Shown one piece after another: positions 1 to 58,982 of a DNA stretch of 64,000 nt. Location: the UHGV virus genome UHGV-0240317, one strand, 5' to 3'. Below the pieces are notes generated by a model, which ran no database searches, was not told the DNA's origin, and saw only the letters and a program-made list of their open reading frames with translations. The position numbers and the translations under genes were made by a program. The stretch's first letter is position 1. Each line of letters starts with the position of its first letter. This DNA is from a virus.

Positions 1-749
1 TCAGTGGCTGGTACAGAACTGCCAATATCAGAGATTGGGTAAGACTGACCATAGATTCGTTTAGCCGTATACACAGCAGGGAAGCTATCAGTTCCTTTAA
101 AGCTGGTTAAGTGGCCTACAGCATTAAATGCGTCATCAGTAAAGCCGGACATACCACGCATAGCAAAGTCATGGCACTGATAAGGCAAATGTAAGTCGTT
201 GTCACAAGTAAGGTCAGCCCACTTCTTACAGATACGTTTGTAGTGCAATGCAATAGTTGCAATGGTACAAGCCTTCCAAATCTCAGCAGAGAAAGCATCT
301 TCCAGATAACCTGCTACCCAATGGAAACCTGAAACAGTGTTCTGAAAAACAATCATCGGAACACGCATAGGGACAACCGTGCCTTCTTCTACAGCGTATA
401 CTTCAACTGGTAGATAACCTAAGTCGTGAAGTGCTTCCCAATGCTCTCGACCGATAGCATCTTTACCCAGAACACCATTCATGACTTCTAAGATTTCGTC
501 AATTGCTTCTTTTTTATCACGTTCAAAGAAGGTGGCATTCCAATGGTCTATCAAGTAATCTTTAACGAAACGTTGAATACCAAAAGCCACTACACCATCA
601 ATTACTAAGGGGCTGTTAAACCACTTATCACTACGTGGTGTCAGGTTCAACATAAGATATTGCGTAGCATCTGGATACTGATATATATGTGATGCCTTGT
701 AAGCATCTGCATTAAGACCTGCTGGTACTGCATAAAGTGATTTAGTCAT
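1..749 (-). CDS. nicotinamide phosphoribosyltransferase-like protein (NadV/NAMPT family), N-terminal part only; gene runs off the window start
   Basis: Minus-strand translation from ATG at 749 reads MTKSLYAVPAGLNADAYKASHIYQYP...HDFAMRGMSGF...SFKGTDS, resembling NAMPT N-terminal motifs; preceded by GAGAGAG RBS; not in ORF track because it has no stop in window. Confidence 0.7.
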   Translation of the reverse strand, partial: MTKSLYAVPAGLNADAYKASHIYQYPDATQYLMLNLTPRSDKWFNSPLVIDGVVAFGIQRFVKDYLIDHWNATFFERDKKEAIDEILEVMNGVLGKDAIGREHWEALHDLGYLPVEVYAVEEGTVVPMRVPMIVFQNTVSGFHWVAGYLEDAFSAEIWKACTIATIALHYKRICKKWADLTCDNDLHLPYQCHDFAMRGMSGFTDDAFNAVGHLTSFKGTDSFPAVYTAKRIYGQSYPISDIGSSVPAT

Positions 750-757
750 CTTTTAAT

Positions 758-785
758 CTCTCTCAAAATGGGGCTTTCAAGCCCC
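758..785 (-). terminator. GC hairpin (GGGGCTT gaa AGCCCC) followed by U-run, between prs-like and NAMPT-like genes
   Basis: Inverted repeat 770-785 with AUUUUGAG on minus strand. Confidence 0.4.
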
Positions 786-794
786 TATAAACTT

Positions 795-1676
795 TCAATC
801 AAGGTTTGCTACAGTAACTTGACCATAATGTGTTAAGCCACGGTCTTTAGCTTCGCCTAAAGAGTTTGTAGTGTAAATATGGTCGATACCGTTGTCAAGA
901 AGGTTTTCAACACCTTTAGAGAAGATACCATGTGTTACATAAAGCTCAACACGTTTTGCACCTGCTTCACGTAGGTGTTTAGCTGCCTCTACGAAGGTTC
1001 GACCACCATCACAGATATCATCAAGAATCATGACGGTTTTATCGGTCAAATCAACATCGTCAAGGATTCGCATACCAGTGATTTCTCCAGTCTTAAGATT
1101 TCGCACCTTAGACATTGTGATATATGGTTTATCCACCTCTTTAGCAGTCTCTGCAATCTTCTTAGAAGCACCTGCATCTGGGGCTACTAAGTAATCAATT
1201 AGAGGGTCATTTGCATAGTGGACTGCAATCTCCTTTTGAGGAATACTTTGGAAGCAGTTAAACAGGTTATCTGGTACATAACTGTGAGGGTCAACTGCAC
1301 AGACTGCACCAAATCCCATTGCATTTACCTGTTTAGCAAAAACCTTTAAAGCTGCTGCGTCGCCTTTAAACATGTGACGGTCATATCGTGCATTTGGTAA
1401 GTAGTAAAAGATGACAGTCTTCATGGCATAATCATGAGGAACTAAATCATCAATTGCTTCTTTAGCAAGTGCCACAGCAAACAATGTGTCTTTGTCATAA
1501 CCCTTTACAATCATAACCACATTGTTAATAGATGATGCTGCATAAGCAGTAAAATCAACAAGCTCTTGTGAAAAGTGTCCACCAATCTCACCAGAAGGAA
1601 ATTGGATAATGTTAAACTCTTCTTCATGAGTTCCTTTAGTTGGTGAATGAACTGTAACACGGATAGATGTTTTCAT
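795..1676 (-). CDS. ribose-phosphate pyrophosphokinase (PRPP synthetase)-like protein; candidate ADP-ribose pyrophosphokinase of a NAD+ reconstitution pair
   Basis: 293 aa; PRPP-binding loop ILDDICDGGRT and Prs-like N-terminal domain; ATG start with GAGAGAG RBS. Confidence 0.7.
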   Translation of the reverse strand: MKTSIRVTVHSPTKGTHEEEFNIIQFPSGEIGGHFSQELVDFTAYAASSINNVVMIVKGYDKDTLFAVALAKEAIDDLVPHDYAMKTVIFYYLPNARYDRHMFKGDAAALKVFAKQVNAMGFGAVCAVDPHSYVPDNLFNCFQSIPQKEIAVHYANDPLIDYLVAPDAGASKKIAETAKEVDKPYITMSKVRNLKTGEITGMRILDDVDLTDKTVMILDDICDGGRTFVEAAKHLREAGAKRVELYVTHGIFSKGVENLLDNGIDHIYTTNSLGEAKDRGLTHYGQVTVANLD

Positions 1677-1805
1677 AGTTTTCTCTCTCTCTCAATCAAA
1701 GGTTACGTTTGTTACTGATATTGCAGCAGAACGTTTTAGGTTTGACAGATACATATCATCTCCAAAATAAAAAGGGAACCTTTACAGTTCCCCTATAGTA
1801 TCTGT

Positions 1806-2126
1806 TTACTGAGCTACTTTCAAGATGCTTGTGAATGAAATCTCACTCTCATCCATAAACTCTTTTGCTTCCCCAGTAACTTTTACAAAGTTATCTAGGC
1901 AGATAATCTTCTTATCTTTCTTGCTGTAGGTTAGCTTAACCTTTTCAATATCTTTCTTAGAGCTTTTCTCTTCATTAAAGAGCTTCACAGCTTCTTTGAA
2001 TGGAAGGTATGAGCCATCATCATCGCTAATAAAACCTGTACCACAATAGTAGAAGTTATACTCTTTAGCCATAAACTTGCACAGTACGAAAATCTGTAAT
2101 TTACGAGTGTTATAAACTTTGCTCAT
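1806..2126 (-). CDS. hypothetical protein
   Basis: 106-aa ORF in compact minus-strand gene array. Confidence 0.45.
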   Translation of the reverse strand: MSKVYNTRKLQIFVLCKFMAKEYNFYYCGTGFISDDDGSYLPFKEAVKLFNEEKSSKKDIEKVKLTYSKKDKKIICLDNFVKVTGEAKEFMDESEISFTSILKVAQ

Positions 2127-2128
2127 GA

Positions 2129-2386
2129 TTATTTAGCCTTCTTATTACGTTTACGGTTACGAGATTTCTTAGCTGCTCGTTTAATAGCTGCTGCACCAGA
2201 CGGACGATGGGCTTGTTTCTTACCACCTTTGCCACGGCCTACATAGATACTTTTCATAATCTCACTAGCCATCTTCTCATCCATCTTGAAGTTCTGCATA
2301 AGATGAGTCACATCAACACCAGTGAGCATACCTAATGAAGCTAGTGCTGCTTTTACTTTTGATTTAAAACTGTTCCAGAGTCCCAT
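2129..2386 (-). CDS. hypothetical protein with highly basic C-terminus
   Basis: 85-aa ORF; C-terminal KKSRNRKRNKKAK. Confidence 0.45.
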   Translation of the reverse strand: MGLWNSFKSKVKAALASLGMLTGVDVTHLMQNFKMDEKMASEIMKSIYVGRGKGGKKQAHRPSGAAAIKRAAKKSRNRKRNKKAK

Positions 2387-2730
2387 TTCGTATCTCTCTC
2401 AACCTTTTCACAAAAGGTTTTAAGTTCTTCTTCAGTGACACCAACAATATTGTCGCCGACGTTTAAATTTGTTTTGTAGAACATTGTGTAGTTACCTTTA
2501 CCGACAACTTCAAATGCTCCAGCCTTCTCAATCTCTGCTAAGGCTTCCATTCCAACATTACCGAAAAGGAAGTTTGTATACTTTCTCCATTCATCAAGTA
2601 GCTCGGTCTTAACTTTATAAGTACCCAATAAAGCACTGTTAAAAGAAAGAACCATTACCTCACCTTTTCCGTAACCCACTTTACGACGAGACTTACTCGG
2701 CTCTCCACTGACAATCACCTTGCCACCCAT
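2353..2730 (-). CDS. hypothetical protein (start uncertain: 2730 or 2655)
   Basis: ORF-track frame 2353-2811 overlaps nrdG; internal ATGs at 2730 and 2655 both have purine-rich upstream sequence. Confidence 0.35.
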   Translation of the reverse strand: MGGKVIVSGEPSKSRRKVGYGKGEVMVLSFNSALLGTYKVKTELLDEWRKYTNFLFGNVGMEALAEIEKAGAFEVVGKGNYTMFYKTNLNVGDNIVGVTEEELKTFCEKVERDTKWDSGTVLNQK

Positions 2731-3178
2731 ACTCTTTTCTCCAGAGGTTTTGGTTATCAGAACCACGATATGGTTTAACTGTTGGTTTAGATGAATCATA
2801 CTTACCATCAATCACCACGTCAACATATTTCATTACATCTAGGTGAATTTTTTCGTGTAACTGAAAACCTGTCCAAAGCCATATAGACTTTTCTGGATAA
2901 ACAGTTTTAATACGCTTGCATATGTTGGTGACCTCTTGAATGTTTCTGTCATCCAGAGGTTCTCCACCAAGTATTGACAGCCCACTGACGGCATTATCAT
3001 CCATTAACTTAATGATGCCATAAAGGTTTGCATAAGTGAACTCTTTACCAGCATTAAACTTCCAAGACTCCCTGTTAAAGCAGCCTTCACAGTGATGCTT
3101 ACAACCAGCTACGAAGAGGCTTACACGAACCCCTTCACCATTAGCTGTGTCAAATGGTCGAATCTCCATGTAATTCAT
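2693..3178 (-). CDS. nrdG: anaerobic ribonucleotide reductase activating protein (radical SAM)
   Basis: 161 aa; cysteine cluster GCKHHCEGCFN and glycine-rich SAM region LSILGGEPL; adjacent to nrdD. Confidence 0.8.
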   Translation of the reverse strand: MNYMEIRPFDTANGEGVRVSLFVAGCKHHCEGCFNRESWKFNAGKEFTYANLYGIIKLMDDNAVSGLSILGGEPLDDRNIQEVTNICKRIKTVYPEKSIWLWTGFQLHEKIHLDVMKYVDVVIDGKYDSSKPTVKPYRGSDNQNLWRKEYGWQGDCQWRAE

Positions 3179-3187
3179 CTAGTTACC

Positions 3188-3487
3188 TCACCAATACATA
3201 TAAGTGTTCTTAGCGGCTTTCTTTGGAGACTTGCTATCAATGTCAAAGTCTTCATCTAAGAAGGCTGTCTTAGAAAGCTGCCTGATTTGTGTTCTTGTAA
3301 GACGTTTAGTAGCCTTCTTAATCTCCCTACAAGGTTGACTTGTAAAGTCATAAGAGCCACCTTTTCTGGACATCATATCAGAATGGAAGTAGACATCTGA
3401 AGCATTTTCTCTGTTACGTACCTCATTTCTCCACTCATAGAGTCCATGAACGTTCTTTAAACCTTTTCTTCGAATTGTTTTACTCAT
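3188..3487 (-). CDS. hypothetical protein
   Basis: 99-aa ORF. Confidence 0.4.
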   Translation of the reverse strand: MSKTIRRKGLKNVHGLYEWRNEVRNRENASDVYFHSDMMSRKGGSYDFTSQPCREIKKATKRLTRTQIRQLSKTAFLDEDFDIDSKSPKKAAKNTYMYW

Positions 3488-4229: not shown

Positions 4230-5177
4230 TTACATAGAAACCCTATCCTTAATTTCTGCCATCTTAGCGTCATTCATTCGAGACTGACCTTTAATTTTTG
4301 TGAATGACAAGTACCCGCACACCCTGTTAATCACAGAGATATCGTGTGAATGGCAAACCTCACACTCTTCAACATCAGCCTTTGGTCTGTTACCACAATG
4401 TTCACAGATTGCTAAGTCAAAGTTAAGTCCCTGATAGAAACCTTTCAACATCCCTCTTGTAATACAACTTTTAAGTGCTGATAAGTTTTCTGGATTAGCT
4501 ACCCTTACATACTGGATTCTGCCGCCTCTACAGATATGGAAGAAGGGTTCTTCTAAGTCCTGCTTCTCAAATGGTGAGATGTTTGCTGCAACATTCATAT
4601 GGAAACTGTTTGTGAAGTATTCCTTGTCAGAAACACCTTTAATAATCCCAAACATCTCTCTGAACTGTTTTAGCTGAGTTCCGCAAAGTGATTCTGCTGG
4701 AGTACCATAGACGGCATATAAGAAGCCATCTTCATTTTTAAACTCTTCGGTTTTCATGTTGATGTATGCCAGAACATCATATGCAAAGCTATAGTTTCCA
4801 ACTTCATGAAGTCGTTTACCTTCAGCAAGAACAGACAACTCATCAAGCGCAGTAACACCAAAAGAAGCTGTGAAGGACTTCACAATATCCCAACCAACCT
4901 TGTCAGTAGGCTTCTTAGTTCCTTTGTACAGACCACCTTGTGTAAATGCAAGAGGGTTAGAACTTGCTGGCATATTAGCAATCATTTCATAGCGTTTCTT
5001 GTGGAAACTACGAATCATCTCTAGGTACTTATCAAGCTCTTTCCAGAAATCTAAACCATTCTCTTTAGAGTACTGGTAAATCATCGGTAAGTTCAAAGAT
5101 ACAGCACCAATGTTTGCACGACCTACATAAAACTCTTCACCATATTCGTTATGGTATGGTGATAAAAATGCTCTACA
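4230..5177 (-). CDS. nrdD: anaerobic ribonucleoside-triphosphate reductase, exon 2 (C-terminal part with glycyl-radical motif)
   Basis: Open frame begins CRAFLSPYHNEYGEEF upstream of the ORF-track start; C-terminus has Cys cluster CEHCG...CEVCHSHD and glycyl radical motif RVCGYL; junction with exon 1 gives ...VISPMG|CRAFLSP... Confidence 0.8.
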   Translation of the reverse strand, partial: CRAFLSPYHNEYGEEFYVGRANIGAVSLNLPMIYQYSKENGLDFWKELDKYLEMIRSFHKKRYEMIANMPASSNPLAFTQGGLYKGTKKPTDKVGWDIVKSFTASFGVTALDELSVLAEGKRLHEVGNYSFAYDVLAYINMKTEEFKNEDGFLYAVYGTPAESLCGTQLKQFREMFGIIKGVSDKEYFTNSFHMNVAANISPFEKQDLEEPFFHICRGGRIQYVRVANPENLSALKSCITRGMLKGFYQGLNFDLAICEHCGNRPKADVEECEVCHSHDISVINRVCGYLSFTKIKGQSRMNDAKMAEIKDRVSM

Positions 5178-5919
5178 CTTGTTGTTCAGGTAAGTTCGCT
5201 AAGCTTACCCCGCTTTATTCAAGCTGCTTACTGTCGCCAGTAAGTCCAGACTATATCTTCTACTTATTTCTAAGTAGCGTACCATTTCGAGTCGCTTGAC
5301 CCTACACCGCTACATTCATCACGGTTAGTCGTTCGGCATTTAGATGTATTCAAACTCATATTCGAAGTTATTATGCTCTTTTACACCCTTCAATATTGAA
5401 GAGATGGTCTTGCGATTGTGTCCAAGTATATTGGATAACTCTCGTATTGACTTAGTAACAATAACTTCCTTTGTCACTTTGTGTGTGGCTTTCACGGCAT
5501 ATGAACGCTTGTGGAACTTGTAGCACCCGTTCTCATAACCCTCTTTAGCATTCTCAGAATGAGTACCCCATTCTAAGTTGGATGCGTGGTTATTTAGTTT
5601 GTTATCGTCCTTATGTTTTACAATTGGAAGATTATTTGGGTTAGGTACATATTTCTCAGCAACTAACCTGTGGACATACATGTCACGATTCTTCTTACCG
5701 TAAAACCTCACTTTCATATACCCAGTGTTGGATTTCCACTGCGTAAGCTCTACACCATTTTCCCTAAAGACTTTTCTATCTTCAGTGACGTGATAGTTTG
5801 GCATGTAAGACTCCTATGTTGTATAGTTTCTTACATCGTACATCATTTAGCACAGGATTGTCTACATCTGTAGAGTTTCCCTGTTTAGGCACGTTTTAGA
5901 TGAGCTATAGAGCTTGTTA
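5178..5919 (-). mobile_element. group I self-splicing intron in nrdD (with embedded HNH homing endonuclease ORF)
   Basis: Exon 1 ends with U (…AUGGGU|UAA), intron ends with G (…CUGAACAACAAG|); core elements CTAAACAGGGAAACTCTACAGATGTAGACAATCCTGTGCTAAAT and GTAGGGTCAAGCGACTCGAAATGG ... ATATAGTCTGGAC closely resemble the T4 td/nrd group IA2 intron core as remembered. Confidence 0.8.
5340..5804 (-). CDS. HNH homing endonuclease (intron-encoded)
   Basis: 154 aa; HNH motif HKDDNKLNNHASNLEWGTHSEN; ATG with AGGAG RBS; lies inside nrdD intron. Confidence 0.75.
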   Translation of the reverse strand: MPNYHVTEDRKVFRENGVELTQWKSNTGYMKVRFYGKKNRDMYVHRLVAEKYVPNPNNLPIVKHKDDNKLNNHASNLEWGTHSENAKEGYENGCYKFHKRSYAVKATHKVTKEVIVTKSIRELSNILGHNRKTISSILKGVKEHNNFEYEFEYI

Positions 5920-7116
5920 ACCCATCGGTGAAATAACCTTACCAGAACGCTCAAAAGCCTCTGCTACAGCACCATGACCAGATACACTTAAGAAGTCTGG
6001 ATACATTGCTTTAGAGCAACACTCAATAGCTTTACTGTACAGGTGACTTTGACAGATATTTTCATCATGTCTCTTCTGGTCATAAATATAAACCAGTTTA
6101 GGGAATACAACAGGTTTTTTGCTCTTGCCTTGTCCATTCATACGAACATCTAGGAGAGTACTTGCAATCATGTATTGTAGTCGATTATCCTCATTAGACA
6201 TATCTGAGTCAAGTAAACCAAATGTTAAAGTTGTGAATGCAAAATCACCACGGCTACAAGGTACGGTATTTAGTTTCATCTCAAGTGACTGAAAACCTTG
6301 AGTCAGTTCAATTTGTAACTGCTCCATTACATAATTGTGGTAATGCTCTTTAGGAATACCATAAGATGATGCTTTCTCAGCATGATAGCGTAGAGACTTC
6401 TTAGCATACGGTACAAGTACCTTATCAATCTCTGCTAAAGTAAAACCACCAAATTGCTGTGCAGTTGCTGAAAGTACTACGTCACCAATAACCTGCAACG
6501 CTGACAGTACAGATTTAGGTTCACAGTACTCAATGCCGGACATTTCAAAGCCACCTTTTAGTACTTTACCAATGTCAAACAGGCAACAGTTAATACCACC
6601 AAAAATCAGGTCTCTCAAATCGTGGATATAGATAAAGCCTTTCTCAATGGCTTCAAGTTCCTCTGGTGTTAGATGATACTGTTTAAAGATTTCTTTAGTC
6701 AGGTAACCACGGATAATTGAACCTTTCGTAGAAATTAAACTGCTGTCAAAGTTAGCATTTTCACGGTCACCTAAGAAGAGTGTATCTTTGGTCTTCTGGT
6801 AAAGCTCATCCCAATTTTGAGCAACTTCTTTACGGTAATTTCTATATGTTGAGTAAGACTCATAAATCTCGTGATTGACTTCTGCCAAAGCACCCTCAAC
6901 AATACTGTGAATATCATTTACAGAAATTAGCAAATTATTCTGCTTAGTGGACTTTACCAGAATCCTCATAAATGCTGACTCAAGAGCTTGGGTAACATCT
7001 GGTGGAAGTTCTTTATATCCAACCCTGTTAGCTGACTTTGTGACTGCTGCTAAAACTTTTTTGATATCAGGTTCTTCAAGTGAGCCATTCTTTTTAATAA
7101 TCTGTACTTTGTTCAT
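5920..7116 (-). CDS. nrdD: anaerobic ribonucleoside-triphosphate reductase, exon 1 (N-terminal ATP-cone and catalytic core)
   Basis: 399 codons starting MNKVQIIKKNGSLEEPDIKKV (ATP-cone-like); ends ...YPDFLSVSGHGAVAEAFERSGKVISPMG immediately before intron-borne stop. Confidence 0.8.
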
Positions 7117-20041: not shown

Positions 20042-20298
20042 GTAAGCCTCTTTTAAGTAACTATTAAGTTTTAATCTTTTATCTTAACGTATTCTATACG
20101 TTATACTTTAAAGCTTTTTAAAAGCTATTAAATAATCTTTTAAGAGTTTTAAAGTATCTGTATAGTTAAACTGTTAAGTAACCTTTTAAGTAAAAACCCA
20201 CTTCGCAAAGATTAACACCTTGTCAAGTGCATTGTCAACTTGCTTTTTATAATTTTTTGCAGTAATGTATGAGGTTAATGATTTTAGAGGGAGTAAAA

Positions 20299-22441
20299 AT
20301 GGAAAACGTAGATTTTAAAAACTTACATTTAGTTGGTGATACAGAAACTGATGGTTTACTCCTTGAGTTCACTAAAGTGCACGTAATGGCTTTCGCAGAC
20401 TATAAATCTGACGATGAAGAGCCACCTGTATGGGTCTTTACAGATGAGCCTATCCTCGGTCACAAGTATACCAAGTACATTAAGGGTGGCTTACGTGAAG
20501 GTGTTGAATTTGCGTTAAAGGCAAAACGTCTTTGCATCCATAATGGTCTCGGTTATGACTGGTGGGTTTTTAATCACATTGCACCTGATTTATGGAACTT
20601 TGATAATCCAAAGTGTAAACCGTGGAGTAATTTCTTTCAGGATTCTCTTATCCAGTCTCGTGTTCAGTGGATGGATAGACCAACCCCAAAAGGTTATAAG
20701 GGTGCTCATGGCTTGGCTGCATGGGGTGCTCGTGTTGGTGTCCGTAAACCAGAGATTGAACATTGGGGTGTGTGGAATGCAGAAATCTTCACTCGTGTTG
20801 TAGAAGATATCCGTATTAACGCCAAAACTAAACGGGCACTTGATAATGAATATCTCAAGCTTAAGAAGTGTGGCATAGATACTTATGAAACCTACATGCG
20901 AGCTAAAGAAACATCTTTTTGGATGAGTCAACAAGCTATCAATGGCTGGAAAGCTGATAAAGAGCTTATGGAGTTCCATGTAAAGGAACTTGACAAGTTG
21001 ACTAATGAGCTTGCTTCAGAGGTTGAACCACATCTACCTCCAACTATTAAGACCAAAGGTAAAGTCACTGGAGAAGAGTTTGCAAAAGCTTGGAATGAGT
21101 ATGTTGAAACATTTGGTCATGCAGATGGACTGAAGAGAATTACCAAGTACCCTAAGACAAAGTATCGTCAGCAGGTACGTAATGGTGAGATGCAGACTTA
21201 TGAAATCAAACCATTTGGTAAGCCAACTACAAAGATTTTTAACATTGAAAAGAGAAATTGCTATACACCAACCAACTCTGTAACTGGTGAAGAGTACAAG
21301 GAAGGTTTTGTAGCAATGAAGGATGCTCGTGCAATTTGCAATGAGTTGAATGCAAAGATTGGTAAGAAATGCAAAGACTGGAAGCCAGCAAAAACAGTTA
21401 AGACTGTGAAGTACTATAACAGCCATGTTGTTAACCACTTTGAGCTTGAGTCAAGTCGCTACACAGGTTTGATTGATGCACCATATACACCAATCGAGTT
21501 CGAAGTTTCTCGTATGACTCAGGTAGCAGTTGTTAAAGACTACTTGAAATCAGTTGGTTGGATTCCAGATGACTGGAACTATAAGAAAGACTCTGATGGT
21601 CGTCCTGTTAAGGTTTGTCGCTTCAAAGACAACAAAAAGATGATTACAAAGCATCCTAAATGGCAGGAAATGGTTGAACGGTGTGGTTTGAGCTATGTTG
21701 AACATGAAGGCGTCCAGTACATTGAGCATAACTGGTCTGTGAAGAAATACACAGATTTGCTTGAGCCTTGCTTAATCCGTACTTCACCAAAACTTACTGA
21801 ATCATCTTATGATACGATTGAAGGTGAGCTTGGACAGAAGATTGCTAAGTACTATACTTTGATGCACCGACGCAGAACTATTGAGAACTCAAAGGATGAT
21901 GAGAAAGGTTGGTTAAACCAGATTCGTCCTGATGGTCGCCTTAGTGCTGGTGCAATGGTGTTTGGTACTTCAACTGGACGTATGACACAATATGGTATTG
22001 TAAACGTACCGTCTGGTGCTGCTGTCTATGGAGCACCTATGAGGGAGGTGTGGATTTGTGAAGAGGGGACTAACATTGTTTCTGTTGACCAGAACTCAGC
22101 CCAGCTTGTTTTACTGTGTAACTTTATGGGTGATAAAGACTTCACCAAAGCAGTAACTGAAGGTAAAGAGTCAGTAGAGTTCACTAAGCAAGATGATGGT
22201 AGATACTACTGTAAACATCTTGACAAGTATCTTAACCCAGAAACTGACAAGTATCTGCGTTATGATGCTGAAAATGACCTCTATGAAGTCTACACAGGGA
22301 CTGATGCGCATACACTGAACAGTATTTACTTTGGTCTTAACAAGGAAGAAGATATTGTCCGTTGTAGGGAGACACAGGGTGAGGAACTTCTCCACGAGAT
22401 TACAAAAGGTCGTAAGAAAGCCAAAAATGGCATTTATGCGT
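20299..22441 (+). CDS. DNA polymerase family A (T7 gp5-like), exon 1 (3'-5' exonuclease and N-terminal polymerase domains)
   Basis: ATG 20299 with GAGGGAG RBS; exo motifs LVGDTETDGL and HNGLGYDWWV; exon ends ...RKKAKNGIYA + U, before in-frame stop located in intron. Confidence 0.8.
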
Positions 22442-22709
22442 CAGTGGCGCATGTAAAACGTTGTGAATTGCTGGAAGCCTAAGTCTGTAAAGATATGGTA
22501 ATCAGCAGCGAAGCCTCTTGAGAGGAACGTTCAGAGACTATCGAAAAGCATACTTAATGTATGAACTGAGTAGAGTAGGGTGGTAAGCTAATGACCATAC
22601 CCAAGTGCAACGGTAGCATCACTGCTACGTGATATAGTCCGACACTCCGTAGAAATGCGGAGAAGTTCATAAGAGAACTGGTACACCTTGCGAGTGTATT
22701 GACCAGATG
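22442..22709 (+). mobile_element. ORF-less group I intron in DNA polymerase gene
   Basis: P1: exon ATGCGU pairs with intron GCGCAU (U-G at splice site); P7 strands GTTCAGAGACTATCG and GATATAGTCCGAC; terminal G at 22709; splicing restores ...NGIYALLFGAGDEKF matching T7 pol motif YGFLYGAGDEK. Confidence 0.75.
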
Positions 22710-23266
22710 TATTGTTCGGTGCAGGTGATGAGAAGTTTGCCAAAACCATTAAGGCAGCTTCTACAGAGGAAGGTGCATTGACTAAGCAGACCTACTATAT
22801 GCGTCTACCAAAGATTAAGAAACTACTTGATAGCTTAGAAGCCGATTTTAAGGCGTCTAAAAAGGCTCTGGAAGAGGTTTTTGGGAAGAATTCTTCAATT
22901 GCTAAAGGTGGTTATATCAGAGTCGCTGGAGCATGGATATGGTGCAAATCTCCACATAAACTACTGAACTACCTCCTGATGAGTTCGGAAGCACAGATTC
23001 AGAATGAGGCCATCAACCTAGCAGCAAGAAAAGCCTGTGAAGATGGCCTGACAAAACTGAATGCTCGAAAACCAGCTATCGGAGCAAGGTTACTTCTGGC
23101 ATATCACGATGAAAATAGTTGGGAATGTCCAGAGGGTATGACACAGGATATGAAAGCAATTGCTGACTGGATGTATGGACAAGCTTCAAAAAACTTAGGT
23201 TTGAGGAAAGAAACACTTGTAACTGGTACAGCAAAGGTTGGTAAGAGCTGGTATGAGGTGCATTGA
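22710..23266 (+). CDS. DNA polymerase family A, exon 2 (motif B/C region to C-terminus)
   Basis: Begins (L)LFGAGDEKFAK; contains ...AYHDENSWECPEG (motif C-like HDE) and C-terminal ...WYEVH. Confidence 0.8.
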
Positions 23267-23269
23267 TTG

Positions 23270-23803
23270 ATGGATTTTATTTCACAAAAACGTTTAAAGG
23301 AGCTACTACACTATGACCCCGAAACAGGGGTCTTTACTTGGCTTCGTAGAGAAGGTAAATCAAGAGCTGTTAGTGTTTTTAACAGTAACTATGCAGGAAA
23401 GGTAGCAGGTAATGTTCAGACAGATTCAACTGGTCATAAACAGATTAGTATCTATTTTGACAAGAAAGCACATAAAGCACACAGACTCGCATGGCTTTAT
23501 GTATATGGCAAGATGCCAAAAGGTATCATTGACCATATCAACGGAGACTCTCTTGACAACAGGATTGCAAACTTAAGGGAAGCAGATGACTTCCAAAGTG
23601 CTTGGAATAAAGGTAAACTAGCCACCAATAAATCTGGGTACAAGGGTGTAAGCCTTAAGAAGAAGTCTGGTAAGTGGGTCGCACAGATAAGTTATAAAGG
23701 TAAGAAGATGTTTTTAGGTTACCATGACACCCCTGAAGAAGCCCATAAAGCTTACTGTGAAGCTGCTATGAAACTCCACGGAGAGTTTGCAAAACTAAGT
23801 TGA
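23270..23803 (+). CDS. HNH homing endonuclease with AP2 DNA-binding domain (free-standing, abutting DNA polymerase gene)
   Basis: HNH region HRLAWLYVYGKMPKGIIDHINGDSLDNRIANL; AP2-like SGYKGVSLKKKSGKWVAQISYKGKKMFLGYHDTPEEAHKAY. Confidence 0.75.
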   Translation: MDFISQKRLKELLHYDPETGVFTWLRREGKSRAVSVFNSNYAGKVAGNVQTDSTGHKQISIYFDKKAHKAHRLAWLYVYGKMPKGIIDHINGDSLDNRIANLREADDFQSAWNKGKLATNKSGYKGVSLKKKSGKWVAQISYKGKKMFLGYHDTPEEAHKAYCEAAMKLHGEFAKLS

Positions 23804-34319: not shown

Positions 34320-34349
34320 ATTTTCCTCTTAAAAGGGGCTATCAAGCCC
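34320..34349 (-). terminator. hairpin (GGGGCT tgata AGCCCC) + U-run upstream of tail fibre gene
   Basis: Inverted repeat 34334-34349, minus strand followed by UUUUAAGAGG. Confidence 0.45.
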
Positions 34350-34360
34350 CTGTAAAGAAA

Positions 34361-55259: not shown

Positions 55260-55335
55260 TGGAGAATCCGAAGGGACTCGAACCCTTATAAGCCTGTTTT
55301 GCAGACAGGCACATAGCCATTTCTGTCACGGATTC
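55260..55335 (-). tRNA. tRNA-Cys (anticodon GCA)
   Basis: Acceptor GAATCCG/CGGATTC, T-arm GGGTTCGAGTCCC, anticodon loop CTGCAAA, encoded CCA. Confidence 0.75.
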
Positions 55336-55339
55336 AAAT

Positions 55340-55432
55340 TGGAGGAAGATACCAGACTTGAACTGGTACACCGATTTCTCAGCTACTGGCAGTTTAGCAA
55401 ACTGCTCCCTTACCTTTTAGGGTTAATCTTCC
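55340..55432 (-). tRNA. tRNA-Ser (anticodon GCT), class II
   Basis: 93 nt with long variable arm; anticodon loop TTGCTAA; T-arm ACCAGTTCAAGTCTGGT; CCA. Confidence 0.7.
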
Positions 55433-55433
55433 A

Positions 55434-56009
55434 TTATTTCTGTAATGCGTTCTTCATTTCTGGTGTTGCAATAGTGTCAATCACACCAGTTTTACAAGCA
55501 TCATCAAACCAGTCTGGTAAGATACCTGCTAAGAACCCATTGATATTCGTTTTAAGGTACTCTGCAATAAGGGCAGCTTCTTCTTCAATCATCTGCACAA
55601 CTTCATCTGCATAAGCTGTAATCTTTGAGATACCTTCATTAATCTTACTGACAGCTTGGTTAGCTAAATCAGAAACAGTATCAAGACCCTTATCAATAGC
55701 ATCTTGTAAGTCACTTAATACACCATTAACACTATCCAATGTACTGTTCATCATGTCAATAGCTTTTTGACCATACTCTGTAGCAACACCCATAATACCA
55801 CTGAATGGTGTACAACCAACTTGTTCTCCTGCTGCACCCATAACATTGGAGTATCCCTTTGCTACCTGCATACGTGATGAAAACTCATCAATAGACTTTT
55901 GACCGTAGTCTGTTAGGGTCTTAGTAGTTGCTGTAGTGCTTGTAAGGCTTGTTGTAAAGCTGTTTAGAAGGACTGTTGTAAGTCCAGCAGCAACAAGTTT
56001 CTCCTTCAT
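55434..56009 (-). CDS. hypothetical protein embedded in tRNA cluster
   Basis: 191-aa ORF, Ser/Thr/Ala-rich, helical. Confidence 0.4.
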   Translation of the reverse strand: MKEKLVAAGLTTVLLNSFTTSLTSTTATTKTLTDYGQKSIDEFSSRMQVAKGYSNVMGAAGEQVGCTPFSGIMGVATEYGQKAIDMMNSTLDSVNGVLSDLQDAIDKGLDTVSDLANQAVSKINEGISKITAYADEVVQMIEEEAALIAEYLKTNINGFLAGILPDWFDDACKTGVIDTIATPEMKNALQK

Positions 56010-56185
56010 TGTAGGGTCTGTTACAGAGCTAATAGAGCTTACAAGTGATGTAGAAGCAGCTACGGTTCCACCGAGAACTGCTGCACCAGTAATAAGTGGG
56101 TTAGAGAACCCTTTACCGGTTTTTTAAGAGATTAAAAATCTCCTTACCTTGTTCTGTCATCTCTTTCATTAAGCACCTTTGAAAT

Positions 56186-56261
56186 TGGTAGTCCAGTGGG
56201 ATTTGAACCCTCTTCTCATGTTTTTCAGACACGCGCTTTAACCATATAAGCTACTTGGACT
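56186..56261 (-). tRNA. tRNA-Phe (anticodon GAA)
   Basis: Anticodon loop CTGAAAA; T-arm GGGTTCAAATCCC; CCA. Confidence 0.7.
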
Positions 56262-56267
56262 ATAAAT

Positions 56268-56343
56268 TGGGGTGACCTACGGGATTTGAACCCGTATAGA
56301 CCATGTTCACAGCATGGGTCATTACCATTTATGATAAGGCCAC
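56268..56343 (-). tRNA. tRNA-His (anticodon GTG)
   Basis: Anticodon stem-loop CCATG-CTGTGAA-CATGG; T-arm CGGGTTCAAATCCCG. Confidence 0.7.
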
Positions 56344-56374
56344 ATTTAAGGACTCTCGCAAGAATCCTTAGAAG

Positions 56375-56450
56375 TGGCAGCGGCATAAGGATTTGAACCT
56401 TAATAGGACAGCTTCAGAGGCTGCTGCATTGCCAGTTATGCTATACCGCT
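56375..56450 (-). tRNA. tRNA-Gln (anticodon CTG)
   Basis: D-stem GCAT/ATGC, anticodon loop CTCTGAA, T-arm TAAGGTTCAAATCCTTA, CCA. Confidence 0.65.
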
Positions 56451-56455
56451 AAATT

Positions 56456-56534
56456 TGGTACTCCATATCGGATTCGAACCGATACATAACACAGATTTTA
56501 AGTCTGGCCTCTCTGCCAATTGGAGTAATGGAGC
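56456..56534 (-). tRNA. tRNA with anticodon TAA (Leu-type anticodon but class-I-like length)
   Basis: Anticodon loop CTTAAAA; T-arm ATCGGTTCGAATCCGAT; 7-nt variable region; isotype uncertain. Confidence 0.5.
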
Positions 56535-56536
56535 AT

Positions 56537-56611
56537 TGGCGGGGGATGTTGGAATTGAACCAACTTCTTCGATTTCAAAGACCGAGGTTTTAACCTTGTA
56601 AACTAATCCCC
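56537..56611 (-). tRNA. tRNA-Gln (anticodon TTG)
   Basis: Anticodon stem-loop TCGGT-CTTTGAA-ATCGA; T-arm GTTGGTTCAATTCCAAC; CCA. Confidence 0.6.
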
Positions 56612-56620
56612 TTTAAATCT

Positions 56621-57178
56621 TTACTTTCTCAGTGGATGAATAAAGAATGCCAACATAACTCTTTCCCTTGAGAATGCTCTTTCTTCTGGGACAACACTTT
56701 TTAGTTTCCATCCAATATAAATTCTCCAGTAAAACTGTTTACCAAAGACTTTAATTGATGGGATAAAAGCGAATAATCCCCAAGCATTACTGTTCCACAT
56801 TAGGAGATAACCTGTCTGATTATCTTCAGGGTCAGAACTTACGTTGATATTACCTTTCCACTTAGTAACATCTTTTACATCTCTTCCTAATACATGGTAA
56901 GAGAAGTTATAAGCTTTGTTTCTCCAGAGCCATCCGACTCTCTGCATGTAGACACCCAGCTTACCAATCTTTCTAATCTTAGCCCATCTTTTAACGTGGC
57001 CTTCATCACCATCAATCGGGTTGTCATAGGTCTCCATCCATCTGAATCCAAAAGGTAGATGCCCTTTCTTCTCACTGTAGAATGGAACTACGAAAGGTGC
57101 TAAGATGACTGCTAGGGTTGCTGCAAATGGTTCTAACAAAGCTAGGAAAATCCATGAAGCATATTTTAAATATCTCAT
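56621..57178 (-). CDS. hypothetical membrane protein embedded in tRNA cluster
   Basis: 185 aa; N-terminal TM segments IFLALLEPFAATLAVILAPFVV. Confidence 0.45.
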   Translation of the reverse strand: MRYLKYASWIFLALLEPFAATLAVILAPFVVPFYSEKKGHLPFGFRWMETYDNPIDGDEGHVKRWAKIRKIGKLGVYMQRVGWLWRNKAYNFSYHVLGRDVKDVTKWKGNINVSSDPEDNQTGYLLMWNSNAWGLFAFIPSIKVFGKQFYWRIYIGWKLKSVVPEERAFSRERVMLAFFIHPLRK

Positions 57179-57417
57179 CGTCTAATCCTTGTAAGGAGAT
57201 AAATGTTATTATTCGTTTCTAAACCTTCTGGTAAAACTGTCTCAAAAATAACACTCTTTAGCTGTCTACCACCAAAACAATCACGTATAAATCTTTCTAC
57301 TCTAGCGGGGTCACATAAGTACCCTACTTTTAAGAAAATGTGGTGTTCAACACCAATGACCCTGACAAACTCAATATTCTCACAGTTTTCATGTTCAACT
57401 ACTGTTAATGTTTGCAT
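57175..57417 (-). CDS. hypothetical protein
   Basis: 80-aa ORF. Confidence 0.4.
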   Translation of the reverse strand: MQTLTVVEHENCENIEFVRVIGVEHHIFLKVGYLCDPARVERFIRDCFGGRQLKSVIFETVLPEGLETNNNIYLLTRIRR

Positions 57418-57434
57418 AGTATCACCTTTTTATC

Positions 57435-57510
57435 TGGCGCAGGATAAGGGATTCGAACCCCTATTAACAGCTTCGTAGACTGTTGCTCTATCCATTTGAA
57501 CTAATCCTGC
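57435..57510 (-). tRNA. tRNA-Arg (anticodon ACG)
   Basis: Anticodon stem-loop ACAGT-CTACGAA-GCTGT; T-arm AGGGGTTCGAATCCCTT; CCA. Confidence 0.75.
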
Positions 57511-57515
57511 AAAAT

Positions 57516-57593
57516 TGGTGTTCCAAGACGGATTCGAACCGTCACTAATACAAGGTTTGAGCTTGCATCCTCTTCCAATTGGGATACTGGAAC
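57516..57593 (-). tRNA. tRNA with anticodon CAA (Leu-type anticodon but class-I-like length)
   Basis: Anticodon loop CTCAAAC; T-arm GACGGTTCGAATCCGTC; perfect acceptor stem; isotype uncertain. Confidence 0.5.
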
Positions 57594-57594
57594 A

Positions 57595-57669
57595 TGGTAC
57601 TCACTAAAGGACTTGAACCTTTTTCTTCATCTTGTAAGGGTGATGTTTTACCATATAAACTAAGCGAGT
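57595..57669 (-). tRNA. tRNA-Val (anticodon TAC)
   Basis: Anticodon loop CTTACAA; T-arm AAAGGTTCAAGTCCTTT; CCA. Confidence 0.65.
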
Positions 57670-57674
57670 GTGAA

Positions 57675-57760
57675 AGAGGTCTGAAGTTGTGCCGCTAACT
57701 CAACTCCGTGGAATTTGTTACGGTCTTCAGTTGACACCAGCGGTCTTTCACTTGACCTCT
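57675..57760 (-). ncRNA. structured non-tRNA element in tRNA cluster (7-bp closing stem AGAGGTC/GACCTCT, inner 6-bp stem CTGAAG/CTTCAG)
   Basis: No T-loop/CCA; contains GAAGACCGT box related to the repeated elements at 59928-60707. Confidence 0.3.
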
Positions 57761-57764
57761 GAAT

Positions 57765-57841
57765 TGGTGCTGCTCACAGGACTCGAACCTGCATTTCCAT
57801 CCTTACAAGGGATGTGTAATAGCCAATTATACGAAAGCAGC
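57765..57841 (-). tRNA. tRNA-Thr (anticodon TGT)
   Basis: Anticodon stem-loop CATCC-CTTGTAA-GGATG; T-arm GCAGGTTCGAGTCCTGT; CCA. Confidence 0.65.
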
Positions 57842-57847
57842 ATTGTT

Positions 57848-57922
57848 TGGAGCATCCAGAGGGAATCGAACCCTCAACCTCAGTTTGGAAGACTGTAATT
57901 TTCCCGTTTAAACTATGGATGC
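57848..57922 (-). tRNA. tRNA-Gly (anticodon TCC)
   Basis: Anticodon loop CTTCCAA; T-arm GAGGGTTCGATTCCCTC; CCA. Confidence 0.7.
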
Positions 57923-57928
57923 ACTAAT

Positions 57929-58004
57929 TGGTGGAGAAGCAGGGAATTGAACCCTGTACTTAAGTTTGCAAAACTTATGTTTTAACCATGTAAACTACAT
58001 CCCC
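57929..58004 (-). tRNA. tRNA-Ala (anticodon TGC)
   Basis: Anticodon stem-loop TAAGT-TTTGCAA-ACTTA; T-arm CAGGGTTCAATTCCCTG; CCA. Confidence 0.65.
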
Positions 58005-58010
58005 AATGTC

Positions 58011-58086
58011 TGGTACAGGTGGAGGGAATTGAACCCATCGTCTTACTGATTAAGAGTCAGCCGCATAACCATTTTGCTACACCTGC
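58011..58086 (-). tRNA. tRNA-Lys (anticodon CTT)
   Basis: Anticodon loop CTCTTAA; T-loop TTCAATT; acceptor GCAGGTG/CACCTGT; CCA. Confidence 0.6.
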
Positions 58087-58093
58087 ATTAATT

Positions 58094-58170
58094 TGGTACA
58101 CCTAGAGAGATTCGAACTCACACTGAGCAGATTCTAAGTCTGCTGCCTCTACCAATTGGGTTATAGGTGC
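58094..58170 (-). tRNA. tRNA with anticodon TAG (Leu-type anticodon but class-I-like length)
   Basis: Anticodon stem-loop GCAGA-CTTAGAA-TCTGC; T-loop TTCGAAT; isotype uncertain. Confidence 0.5.
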
Positions 58171-58171
58171 A

Positions 58172-58624: not shown

Positions 58625-58894
58625 GTGTCAATCTCCCATTAAATCTTTTTAGAGAACTTCTAAGAACCTAAGCAACAAGGTTCCACAACAAGCTGTAATA
58701 ACCTTAGAAGCCCTCTAAAAAGACCTAAAAAGGTCTTTGCATAGTCTTGTTTAATCCGGTGACTAGAACCTTTGGAGAGCTTGATATTATCTCTTCTCCG
58801 TGACACCTACTAGGTGCTTTATCAGTGCGTACAACAATACACGCGGTATACCAAAGCAACATCCGAATGAAGCTTGGCTTTAAATCTTATTAGG

Positions 58895-58982
58895 CGGTAA
58901 GTAAAGGAGTCGAACCCTCACCGTATCTCTACAGTGGCAACAGTTTTCAAGACTGTTTGGCTGCCATTAGCCGCTACCTACC
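58895..58982 (-). tRNA. tRNA-Ser (anticodon TGA), class II
   Basis: 88 nt; anticodon stem-loop ACAGT-CTTGAAA-ACTGT; long variable arm; T-arm GAGGGTTCGACTCCTTT; CCA not encoded. Confidence 0.6.

What the first reader, a model, noticed from the sequence alone, without database searches (positions are those of the whole stretch)
1..1676. Adjacent PRPP-synthetase-like and NAMPT-like genes: candidate NAD+ reconstitution (NARP1-type) counter-defence module
A Prs-like protein (PRPP-binding loop ILDDICDGGRT) is immediately followed by a NadV/NAMPT-like gene. From established knowledge, phage pairs of a Prs homolog (ADP-ribose pyrophosphokinase) and a NAMPT homolog can rebuild NAD+ from ADP-ribose and nicotinamide, countering NAD+-depleting immunity (Thoeris, DSR, SIR2-type). 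Canonical NAD salvage would instead pair NAMPT with an NMN adenylyltransferase, which is not seen in this window.
Basis: partly seen in the sequence, partly recalled or inferred. Interest (0 to 1): 0.8.

Follow-up and report, generated by a model that had tools for sequence, protein, structure and literature searches.

The report
Known phage NAD+ rebuilding operon (NARP1)

Summary
On the minus strand, a complete 293-aa Prs-family gene (1676->795) is followed after a 45-nt spacer by the first 249 codons of a NAMPT-family gene (749->1), which the window start cuts off.

The window is a Felixounavirus genome piece, about 95% identical in DNA to many FelixO1-like phages. The two proteins are 79% and 97% identical to, and syntenic with, Bas63 (JohannRWettstein) genes 79 and 80. 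NARP1 (Adps + Namat) was discovered in that operon.

An 88.7-kb metagenome contig identical to the window over 9 kb supplies the rest of the gene. It encodes a 593-aa Namat with the published Namat signature GSYTYQYMTRD. Beyond it lie small ORFs and rIIA/rIIB, not an NMNAT. No NMNAT, Macro (Adpp), RyR (RyDEP) or NUDIX domain was found in the 75 other window ORFs scanned.

The Adps keeps the catalytic Lys (K190). On curated profiles it behaves like the reference Adps proteins, not like E. coli Prs.

The locus is already known: an ortholog of the type example, the plain two-gene form, and predicted not to counter aRES. Enzyme activity and the anti-defence phenotype are inferred from orthologs, not shown for this allele. 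Interest is low.

The parts
795..1676 (-). adps: ADP-ribose pyrophosphokinase (Prs-family), complete, 293 aa
   Evidence: ORF. Family hits. 79% identical to Bas63_0079. 34% identity, 97.8 bits to SPbetaL1 Adps versus 29%, 60.5 bits to E. coli Prs. Scores 119 bits on TIGR01251, like reference Adps (106 and 138 bits) and unlike E. coli Prs (423 bits); no PF13793 N-domain match.
1107..1109 (-). Codon of Adps Lys190, in MSKVRNLKTGEI (catalytic flexible loop)
   Evidence: Aligns with SPbetaL1 Adps K162 in GHKQRNFHTGEI. Osterman et al. equate K162 with B. subtilis Prs K197 and chose it for their active-site (K162A) mutant.
996..1028 (-). Ribose-5-phosphate/PRPP-type binding loop ILDDICDGGRT (Adps residues 217-227)
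   Evidence: Lies in the C-terminal 113 residues, which are 97% identical to Bas63 Adps.
750..794 (-). 45-nt adps-namat spacer holding the hairpin GGGGCU-UGAA-AGCCCC (770-785), then AUUUUG and the GAGAGAG ribosome-binding region of namat
   Evidence: Fold -12.6 kcal/mol, z = -3.2. Hairpin identical in Bas63, Alf5 and the metagenome contigs. Its role as a weak terminator or RNA-stability element is inferred. It was not called a terminator by the scan.
1..749 (-). namat: nicotinamide ADP-ribose transferase (NAMPT-family), codons 1-249 of 593, cut by the window start two codons before catalytic His251
   Evidence: Translation. Family hits. Fragment 97% identical to Bas63_0080. The full gene from the identical contig L003 is 575/593 identical to Bas63 Namat and carries GSYTYQYMTRD.
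621..626 (-). Namat selectivity-clamp loop residues Lys42-Trp43 (in TPRSDKWFNSPL)
   Evidence: Aligns with SPbetaL1 Arg40. PMC12774641 states that in Bas63-type Namat the residue after Lys does the adenine stacking.
1772..1794 (-). Terminator-like hairpin (9-bp stem plus U-run) closing the upstream DUF7390 gene and marking the 5' boundary of the adps-namat unit
   Evidence: It is the only terminator-like site found in 1-3300.
1677..1771 (-). adps leader. The last ~50 nt (CTGCAAT..CAGTAACAAACGTAAC.TTTGATTGAGAGAGA) are conserved with Bas63 although the sequence further upstream differs
   Evidence: Alignment. No convincing sigma-70 promoter and no Rfam match. The promoter is unassigned.

Best explanation
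This is the NARP1 (NAD+ reconstitution pathway 1) operon of a Felixounavirus.

When a host NAD+-depleting defence splits NAD+ into ADP-ribose and nicotinamide, two phage enzymes rebuild it. Examples of such defences are SIR2-HerA, type I Thoeris, DSR1/2 and SEFIR. Adps (795-1676) uses ATP to pyrophosphorylate the ribose C1'' of ADP-ribose, giving ADPR-PP. Namat (1-749 plus about 1 kb beyond the window) transfers the ADP-ribosyl group of ADPR-PP onto nicotinamide, giving NAD+ directly and releasing pyrophosphate. No NMN intermediate and no adenylyltransferase are needed. The phage thereby restores the NAD+ pool and completes infection.

Shown here: gene presence, integrity and order; orthology to the Bas63 operon; conservation of the catalytic and specificity residues; absence of NMNAT, Macro and RyR partners.

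Inferred from orthologs and the literature: the two enzyme reactions and the anti-defence phenotype. Because there is no Adpp phosphatase, the operon is predicted not to overcome aRES, which yields ADPR-1''-phosphate.
For: - Taxonomy: the window is a Felixounavirus. 254 phage records match 1-1676, and 248 of them cover at least 80% of it.
- Orthology and synteny with the type example: Adps is 79% and Namat 97% identical to bas63_0079/0080, in the same place downstream of nrdG and the DUF7390 gene and upstream of rIIA/rIIB.
- Literature, Bas63 phenotype: Bas63 lacking genes 79-80 loses the ability to overcome SIR2-HerA. ADPR-PP (m/z 720.010) appears only with the operon present.
- Literature, independent screen: single deletions of g79 or g80 reduce plating on Sir2-HerA cells by 10^4 to 10^6, and complementation restores it.
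- Literature, SPbetaL1 enzymes: Adps converted ADPR plus ATP, while the control assay for Prs activity gave no measurable product. Namat prefers ADPR-PP over PRPP.
- Adps features: catalytic Lys190 matches SPbetaL1 K162, and the KxRN..TGEI loop is shared with SPbetaL1 Adps but not with E. coli Prs.
- Adps profile scores: they match reference Adps, not Prs.
- Namat features inside the window: D15, Y17, K42-W43, F195, R198, D221, A248. In the identical contig L003: R327, D329 and the SCH signature GSYTYQYMTRD at 488-498.
- No NMNAT, NUDIX, Macro or RyR domain in the 75 other window ORFs scanned or in the 8 kb beyond the window.
Against: - No enzyme from this phage, nor Bas63 Adps itself, has been assayed in vitro. 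The Bas63 protein did not purify well, and the biochemistry comes from SPbetaL1 proteins that are only about 34% identical for Adps.
- The N-terminal 180 residues of this Adps are only 68% identical to Bas63 Adps.
- More than half of namat, including the catalytic His and the SCH motif, lies outside the window. It is known only from an identical metagenome contig.
- A formal Adps-versus-Prs phylogeny was not built here.
Confidence: 0.93

Rival explanations
1. Classical NAD+ salvage and PRPP supply, as still annotated in GenBank. The Prs-like enzyme makes PRPP from ribose-5-phosphate, the NAMPT-like enzyme makes NMN from PRPP and nicotinamide, and a host NMN adenylyltransferase (NadD or NadR) finishes NAD+. 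This would boost NAD+ and nucleotide pools for replication rather than counter defence.
For: - Database names and curated models still say so. NCBIfam NF006629 'nicotinate phosphoribosyltransferase' passes its cut-off for the full protein (468 bits versus 405), and every GenBank record calls the pair Prs/NAMPT.
- The operon sits at the end of a nucleotide-metabolism block: nrdA, nrdB, nrdD, nrdG, glutaredoxin, dNMP kinase.
- Namat can make NMN from PRPP in vitro.
Against: - The Bas63 orthologs generate ADPR-PP in vivo and are needed specifically on NAD+-depleting hosts.
- SPbetaL1 Adps gave no measurable product in the control assay for Prs activity.
- The protein fails every Prs equivalog and subfamily cut-off except the generic TIGR01251. 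It lacks a detectable PF13793 N-domain, which E. coli Prs hits at 179 bits.
- Namat carries the adenine-clamp motif that confers ADPR-PP preference.
Confidence: 0.04
2. NARP1 with broader duties. As well as rebuilding NAD+ after SIR2-, TIR- or SEFIR-type depletion, the pair also relieves defences that do not simply cleave NAD+, or supports adenine-nucleotide recovery. Its selective value would then not be limited to NADase systems.
For: PhageMaP reports that g79 and g80 of Bas63 also counter the Ec86 retron (about 10-fold and 10^3-fold loss of plating) and affect fitness on hhe hosts. Namat keeps residual PRPP activity.
Against: - These are single-study phenotypes from a preprint, with proposed rather than shown mechanisms.
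- NARP1 did not counter type II Thoeris or aRES.
- Nothing in the sequence bears on the question.
Confidence: 0.25
3. Extended pathway variant: NARP1-AP with an Adpp phosphatase, or NARP1 with a RyDEP glycosidase, able to use ADPR-1''-phosphate or cyclic ADPR signals as input.
For: Such three-gene operons exist in other phages: 15% of NARP1 phages carry a Macro-domain gene, and mycobacteriophage DyoEdafos carries RyDEP inside its NARP1 locus.
Against: - No Macro (PF01661) or RyR (PF02026) domain in any of the 75 other window ORFs scanned or in the neighbours beyond the window.
- The spacer between the two genes is only 45 nt.
- The upstream neighbour is a DUF7390 protein separated by a terminator-like hairpin.
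Confidence: 0.02

Closest known systems
NARP1 operon of Escherichia phage JohannRWettstein (Bas63), genes bas63_0079 (Adps) and bas63_0080 (Namat), MZ501086
   Same: Same genus, same gene order and orientation, same flanking genes (nrdG, DUF7390 gene, adps, namat, small ORFs, rIIA, rIIB), and an identical intergenic hairpin. Namat is 97% identical over 593 aa. Adps C-terminal 113 aa are 97% identical.
   Different: Adps N-terminal 180 aa are only 68% identical (58 non-synonymous and 55 synonymous codon differences). The window carries the commoner of two Ounavirinae Adps alleles: about 155 records at 90-99% identity versus 93 at 60-80%. The window lacks the two ORFs (gp77 GIY-YIG, gp78) that lie just upstream of adps in Bas63 and Alf5.
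NARP1 of Bacillus phage SPbetaL1 (OQ921341): biochemically characterised Adps, and Namat with a reported crystal structure (the top PDB matches, 9w5w/9w5x, are probably this protein; identity inferred)
   Same: Same two-gene architecture. Same catalytic Lys loop KxRN..TGEI in Adps. Same NAM/NAD+ contact residues and GSxTYQYxTRD clamp helix in Namat.
   Different: Adps is only 34% identical over 195 aa. Namat is 491 aa versus 593 aa: the Felixounavirus protein has a 15-aa and a roughly 77-aa insertion. The clamp loop uses K42-W43 instead of R40. The genes overlap in SPbetaL1 instead of having a 45-nt hairpin spacer.
NARP2 of Vibrio phage KVP40 (NadV Nampt + NatV Nmnat)
   Same: A NAMPT-family enzyme used by a phage to restore NAD+ against depleting defences.
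   Different: NARP2 needs an NMN adenylyltransferase partner and starts from PRPP. No NMNAT is present here, a Prs-like Adps is present instead, and Namat carries the ADPR-PP clamp motif. NARP1 and NARP2 have not been found together in one phage.
NARP1-AP of Vibrio phage Gary (Adps, Macro-domain Adpp, Namat)
   Same: Same Adps and Namat core.
   Different: No Macro-domain phosphatase here, so ADPR-1''-phosphate made by aRES should not be usable (scans).
Bacterial and archaeal PRPP synthase (Prs): E. coli class I, and archaeal class III such as Sulfolobus 4twb
   Same: Same family and motifs (NARYDR/YARQDR, DPHS/DLHA, PDAGA/PDIGG, DDxxDxGxT). The best solved-structure matches by sequence are archaeal Prs (4twb 7e-18, 3lpn, 1u9y).
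   Different: Scores 119 bits on TIGR01251 versus 423 for E. coli Prs. Fails all equivalog cut-offs. The N-terminal domain is not recognised by PF13793. The catalytic loop is KVRNLKTGEI instead of DKRRPRANVS. The substrate is inferred to be ADP-ribose.

Membership tests
NARP1 (Adps + Namat) | Prs-family gene immediately upstream of, and co-oriented with, a NAMPT-family gene | tested here: met
   1676->795, then 749->1, with a 45-nt spacer.
NARP1 (Adps + Namat) | The Prs-family member belongs to the phage Adps group rather than to canonical Prs | tested here: met
   79% identity and synteny with Bas63 Adps. 97.8 bits to SPbetaL1 Adps versus 60.5 bits to E. coli Prs. TIGR01251 gives 119 bits, compared with 106 and 138 for reference Adps and 423 for E. 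coli Prs. No PF13793 match. A formal tree was not built.
NARP1 (Adps + Namat) | Adps catalytic lysine (SPbetaL1 K162, B. subtilis Prs K197) | tested here: met
   K190 in MSKVRN aligns with K162 in GHKQRN.
NARP1 (Adps + Namat) | Namat catalytic core: nicotinamide pocket and ribose contacts D13', Y15', F189, R192, D215, A242, R306, D308 of SPbetaL1 | tested here: met
   Inside the window: D15, Y17, F195, R198, D221, A248. In the identical contig L003: R327, D329 and the ATEH histidine (His251).
NARP1 (Adps + Namat) | Namat selectivity-clamp loop (SCL) with an adenine-stacking residue (R, or K/Y followed by the stacking residue) | tested here: met
   K42-W43 in TPRSDKWFNSPL, identical to Bas63 (rule taken from PMC12774641).
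NARP1 (Adps + Namat) | Namat selectivity-clamp helix motif GS-X-phi-X-phi-X-phi-TRD with aromatic X | tested here: met
   The motif is not inside the window. GSYTYQYMTRD sits at residues 488-498 of the full gene on contig L003, which is identical to the window over 9,000 nt.
NARP1 (Adps + Namat) | ADPR + ATP -> ADPR-PP, then ADPR-PP + nicotinamide -> NAD+ | not testable with these tools
   Shown in vitro for SPbetaL1 proteins and in vivo (ADPR-PP ion) for Bas63. Not shown for this allele.
NARP1 (Adps + Namat) | Rescues the phage from NAD+-depleting defence systems | not testable with these tools
   Shown for Bas63 deletions in two independent studies.
NARP2 (Nampt + Nmnat) | NMN adenylyltransferase (NatV-like) encoded by the phage | tested here: not met
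   No CTP_transf_like or NUDIX hit in the 75 other window ORFs scanned or in ORFs within 8 kb beyond the window. None is annotated among Bas63 genes 1-119.
NARP1-AP (with Adpp) | Macro-domain ADPR-1''-phosphate phosphatase in the operon | tested here: not met
   No Macro domain in any scanned ORF. The spacer is 45 nt.
NARP1 + RyDEP | RyR-domain (PF02026) glycosidase in or beside the operon | tested here: not met
   No PF02026 hit.
Canonical PRPP synthase (Prs) | Passes curated Prs equivalog or subfamily models and has the Prs N-terminal domain PF13793 | tested here: not met
   Only the generic TIGR01251 is passed, narrowly (119.4 versus 113). NF002320 gives 90.5 versus 297, and the other specific models fall far below their cut-offs. 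PF13793 is absent. The E. coli Prs control passes with 533, 423 and 179 bits.

The most novel reading that the evidence does not exclude
The Adps allele in this window is the commoner Ounavirinae allele. Its N-terminal 180 residues are about 32% diverged from the Bas63 protein, which has been studied in vivo, while the C-terminal domain and Namat are 97% identical. The most novel reading not excluded is that this allele is functionally distinct, in kinetics, regulation or escape from a host factor that recognises Adps. Its mosaic boundary inside the gene would then be maintained by recombination driven by the free-standing homing endonucleases that flank or split this operon in relatives.
Probability: 0.06. 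Interest if true: 0.4.

Novelty: already known. Interest (0 to 1): 0.15.

Why it matters
NARP1 lets a phage undo the damage of many unrelated NAD+-depleting defences at once. Recognising it therefore predicts host range against SIR2-HerA, type I Thoeris, DSR and SEFIR hosts, and sensitivity to aRES.

For this window the value is in annotation, not discovery. Public records and curated model libraries (NCBIfam of June 2026, Pfam, PHROGs) still name the pair 'ribose-phosphate pyrophosphokinase' and 'nicotinamide/nicotinate phosphoribosyltransferase'.

Tried and rejected
- Rfam on 1-2400 at E<=1 found nothing, so no known RNA element sits in or around the operon.
- The sigma-70 promoter scan of 1-3300 gave fewer sites (5) than shuffles (8.6). 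No site is suitably placed upstream of adps, so the promoter stays unassigned.
- The inter-gene hairpin did not meet the terminator criteria. Its function is left as inference.
- I looked for accessory genes next to the operon. The upstream neighbours are DUF7390 and proteins with no Pfam match. The Bas63 extras gp77 and gp78 also gave no Pfam hit at E<0.01, although a preprint calls gp77 GIY-YIG.
- I tested whether the gp77/78 indel explains the Adps allele split and rejected it. Alf5 has both ORFs yet carries the window-type allele at 96% DNA identity.
- No named phage genome is identical to the window; the best are about 95-97%. The exact sequence was found only in a metagenome contig.
- I did not build a full Prs/Adps or Nampt/Namat tree, and did not fetch KVP40 NadV. 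Orthology to Bas63 plus the motif tests made them unnecessary.
- Structure prediction was not run, because it could not decide substrate specificity.
Full report
**What is in the sequence**

Positions 1-1676 hold two co-oriented genes on the minus strand. The first is a complete 293-aa ORF running 1676->795. The second starts at ATG 749->747 and stays open to base 1, giving 249 codons plus two bases.

The first protein matches these families:
- Pfam PF00156 and PF14572.
- NCBIfam TIGR01251, ribose-phosphate diphosphokinase, E=1.4e-34.
- PHROG 619, E=6.5e-98.

The second protein matches:
- PF18127 NAMPT_N.
- NCBIfam NF006629, E=1.2e-62.
- PHROG 16547, E=1.8e-129.

The genes are separated by 45 nt. 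This spacer contains a stable hairpin, GGGGCU-UGAA-AGCCCC, at 770-785 (-12.6 kcal/mol, z = -3.2). A terminator-like hairpin at 1794-1772 separates the pair from the upstream DUF7390 gene.

**Where the window comes from**

The region is 94-97% identical in DNA to some 250 FelixO1-like phages of Escherichia, Salmonella, Shigella and Citrobacter, genus Felixounavirus, subfamily Ounavirinae. No named genome is identical.

An exact-protein look-up found an 88,697-bp metagenome contig (ENA ERZ27273059 k119_109691, locus L003). It matches the window with 0 mismatches over the 9,000 nt compared. I used it to read beyond the window start.

**Relation to the known system**

NARP1 was discovered in Escherichia phage JohannRWettstein (Bas63), a Felixounavirus, as the operon of genes 79-80 (Osterman et al., bioRxiv 10.1101/2024.02.11.579819). 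I fetched Bas63 (MZ501086, accession taken; annotation).

- The window Prs-like protein is 79% identical to bas63_0079 over all 293 residues, without gaps.
- The NAMPT-like fragment is 97% identical to bas63_0080.
- The full 593-aa protein from L003 is 575/593 identical to bas63_0080.
- Gene order is the same on both sides: nrdG, small ORFs, DUF7390 gene, adps, namat, small ORFs, rIIA, rIIB.

These are therefore orthologs of the type example, not merely similar genes.

**What the literature shows for the orthologs**

- Bas63 lacking genes 79-80 can no longer overcome SIR2-HerA.
- An ion assigned as ADPR-PP appears in SIR2-HerA cells infected by wild-type Bas63 but not by the deletion mutant.
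- The Bas63 enzyme did not purify well, so the in-vitro work used the phage SPbetaL1 homologs. That Adps converted ADPR plus ATP, while the control assay for Prs activity gave no measurable product. That Namat made NAD+ from ADPR-PP and nicotinamide and preferred ADPR-PP over PRPP.
- An independent knockout screen found that deleting g79 or g80 lowers plating on Sir2-HerA cells by 10^4-10^6, and complementation restores it.
- A report of SPbetaL1 Namat crystal structures defined an adenine 'selectivity clamp'. It consists of a variable loop (SCL) and a helix motif GS-X-phi-X-phi-X-phi-TRD (SCH) that is absent from Nampt.

**Tests of the defining features: Adps**

- K190, in MSKVRNLKTGEI, aligns with SPbetaL1 K162 (GHKQRNFHTGEI). 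K162 is the active-site lysine the discoverers chose to mutate. E. coli Prs has DKRRPRANVS at this position.
- The window protein is closer to SPbetaL1 Adps (34% identity, 97.8 bits) than to host Prs (29%, 60.5 bits).
- On TIGR01251 it scores 119 bits. Bas63 Adps scores 138 and SPbetaL1 Adps 106, whereas E. coli Prs scores 423.
- It fails every specific Prs model, for example NF002320 at 90.5 bits against a cut-off of 297.
- It lacks a detectable PF13793 N-terminal domain. E. coli Prs matches that domain at 179 bits.

**Tests of the defining features: Namat**

- Inside the window: the nicotinamide-pocket residues D15, Y17, F195, R198, D221, A248, and the Bas63-type clamp loop K42-W43.
- Just outside the window, read from L003: catalytic His251 (two codons beyond base 1), R327, D329, and the SCH signature GSYTYQYMTRD at 488-498.

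**Absence of alternative partners**

I scanned the 75 other ORFs chosen by eye from the >=80-aa ORF list (plus one of 66 aa) against Pfam. They gave ribonucleotide reductases, thymidylate synthase, DHFR, dNMP kinase, ligase, polymerase, primase-helicase, structural proteins and homing endonucleases. They gave no NMN adenylyltransferase, NUDIX, Macro or RyR domain.

The 8 kb beyond the window start holds the rest of namat, ORFs of 111 and 58 aa, rIIA, rIIB and three further ORFs. None has such a domain. Nothing of the kind is annotated among Bas63 genes 1-119.

It also excludes the extended forms NARP1-AP (Macro-domain Adpp phosphatase) and NARP1 with RyDEP. Plain NARP1 was reported not to overcome the aRES system, which converts NAD+ to ADPR-1''-phosphate. 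I therefore predict the same limitation here; this is an inference.

**Mechanism: shown and inferred**

Shown here:
- An intact adps gene and the 5' 42% of namat, complete in an identical contig.
- Orthology to the Bas63 operon.
- Conserved catalytic and specificity residues.
- A compact two-gene unit bounded upstream by a terminator-like hairpin.

Inferred from orthologs:
- Adps pyrophosphorylates ADP-ribose with ATP.
- Namat joins ADPR-PP to nicotinamide to give NAD+.
- The phage thereby escapes SIR2-HerA, type I Thoeris, DSR1/2 and SEFIR-type depletion.

Unresolved:
- The promoter. No convincing sigma-70 site was found.
- The role of the inter-gene hairpin, which could be a partial terminator or a stability element.

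**How this locus differs from Bas63**

The Adps N-terminal 180 residues are 68% identical to Bas63 Adps, while residues 181-293 are 97% identical. DNA identity rises from about 48-81% across nt 1-504 to about 89-95% from nt 505 onward.

Across phage genomes the protein falls into two groups: about 155 records at 90-99% identity to the window, and 93 at 60-80%, which includes Bas63. The window therefore carries the commoner allele, while the in-vivo work was done on the other.

The ratio of synonymous to non-synonymous codon differences in the diverged part is 55:58. This looks like older divergence brought in by recombination, not like strong positive selection. The conserved C-terminal part holds the catalytic loop and the phosphate-binding loop. 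By analogy with Prs, that loop should contact the phosphate bearing the extra AMP of ADPR, which argues for unchanged substrate choice; this is an inference.

**Verdict**

The locus is nevertheless the already described NARP1 operon in its original genus, present in essentially every sequenced Felixounavirus (248 of the 254 matching records cover at least 80% of the region). It is ordinary for this phage group. Its main practical message is that public annotation still mislabels both genes.

Noticed in passing
window 1677-1805 (compare L002 11949-12735, L001 3646-4432): Bas63 and Alf5 carry two extra ORFs right upstream of adps: gp77 (171 aa) and gp78 (92 aa). The PhageMaP preprint reports gp77 as a GIY-YIG protein that counters the Ec67 retron. 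The window has only a 129-nt intergenic region here, so this phage lacks them. The adps upstream flank is a variable slot.
   Followed up: partly
window 795-1676: adps is mosaic relative to Bas63. Codons 1-180 are 68% identical and codons 181-293 are 97% identical. Two allele groups exist across Ounavirinae: about 155 records versus 93. The gp77/78 indel does not track the alleles, since Alf5 has both ORFs together with the window-type allele.
   Followed up: partly
window 750-794 (compare L011 3083-3598): In some relatives a homing-endonuclease gene sits between adps and namat: phiSUSP1 has a 492-nt 'putative homing endonuclease' gene, and ULIM3 and VpaE1_ev108 have an HNH gene with about 470 extra nt. 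The 45-nt hairpin spacer is therefore an insertion hot spot.
   Followed up: partly
L003 8928-10709 (continuation of the window gene beyond base 1): Felixounavirus Namat is 593 aa versus 491 aa for SPbetaL1 Namat. It has a 15-aa insertion after the catalytic His region and a roughly 77-aa insertion (about residues 343-420) with no Pfam match. The function of the inserted segment is unknown.
   Followed up: no
L009 5082-8353 and L010 5083-8364 (Cronobacter malonaticus and Superficieibacter chromosomes): The closest non-phage homologs of this Adps (40-48% identity) form a prs-like plus nadV-like operon. It is divergent from an NrtR-type (NUDIX + WHD_NrtR) regulator gene, lies among housekeeping genes, and has no phage genes nearby. 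The Superficieibacter NadV-like protein carries the Namat motif GSFTYQYNTRD. In Cronobacter the namat-like gene is split into 348 + 157 aa. From my own recollection (not checked here), NrtR-family regulators respond to ADP-ribose, which would suggest a chromosomal NARP1 controlled by its own substrate.
   Followed up: partly
window 4230-7116: nrdD is split into two ORFs (5917-7116 and 4230-5096) by an insert carrying an HNH endonuclease ORF (5340-5804). A sub-threshold group I intron match lies at 5227-5407 (33 bits, E=2e-6). Bas63 annotates the gene as a two-piece join.
   Followed up: partly
window 20269-23803: A group I intron (Rfam RF00028, 62 bits) lies at 22379-22662, at the end of the 737-aa ORF 20269-22482. 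It is followed by two ORFs at 22712-23266 and 23267-23803. HNH, AP2 and DNA_pol_A domain hits occur somewhere in the scanned group of ORFs that includes these three, but that scan does not say which ORF. By position relative to the Bas63 DNA polymerase gene, the polymerase gene appears interrupted here, unlike the 2,730-nt Bas63 gene.
   Followed up: partly
window 55260-60875: There are 26 tRNA genes on the minus strand in several clusters, interspersed with small ORFs.
   Followed up: yes
window 34335-34350: A one-mismatch copy of the adps-namat hairpin (GGGGCTTGATAGCCCC) lies between two tail-fibre genes. This suggests the hairpin is a recurrent inter-gene punctuation element in this phage, not something specific to NARP1.
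   Followed up: no
window 1-1676 (annotation libraries): NCBIfam release 20 (June 2026) still assigns full-length Namat to the equivalog 'nicotinate phosphoribosyltransferase' above its cut-off (468 versus 405 bits). Neither NCBIfam nor the Pfam and PHROG libraries returned an Adps- or Namat-specific family for these proteins, so pipelines will keep mislabelling NARP1 genes.
   Followed up: yes
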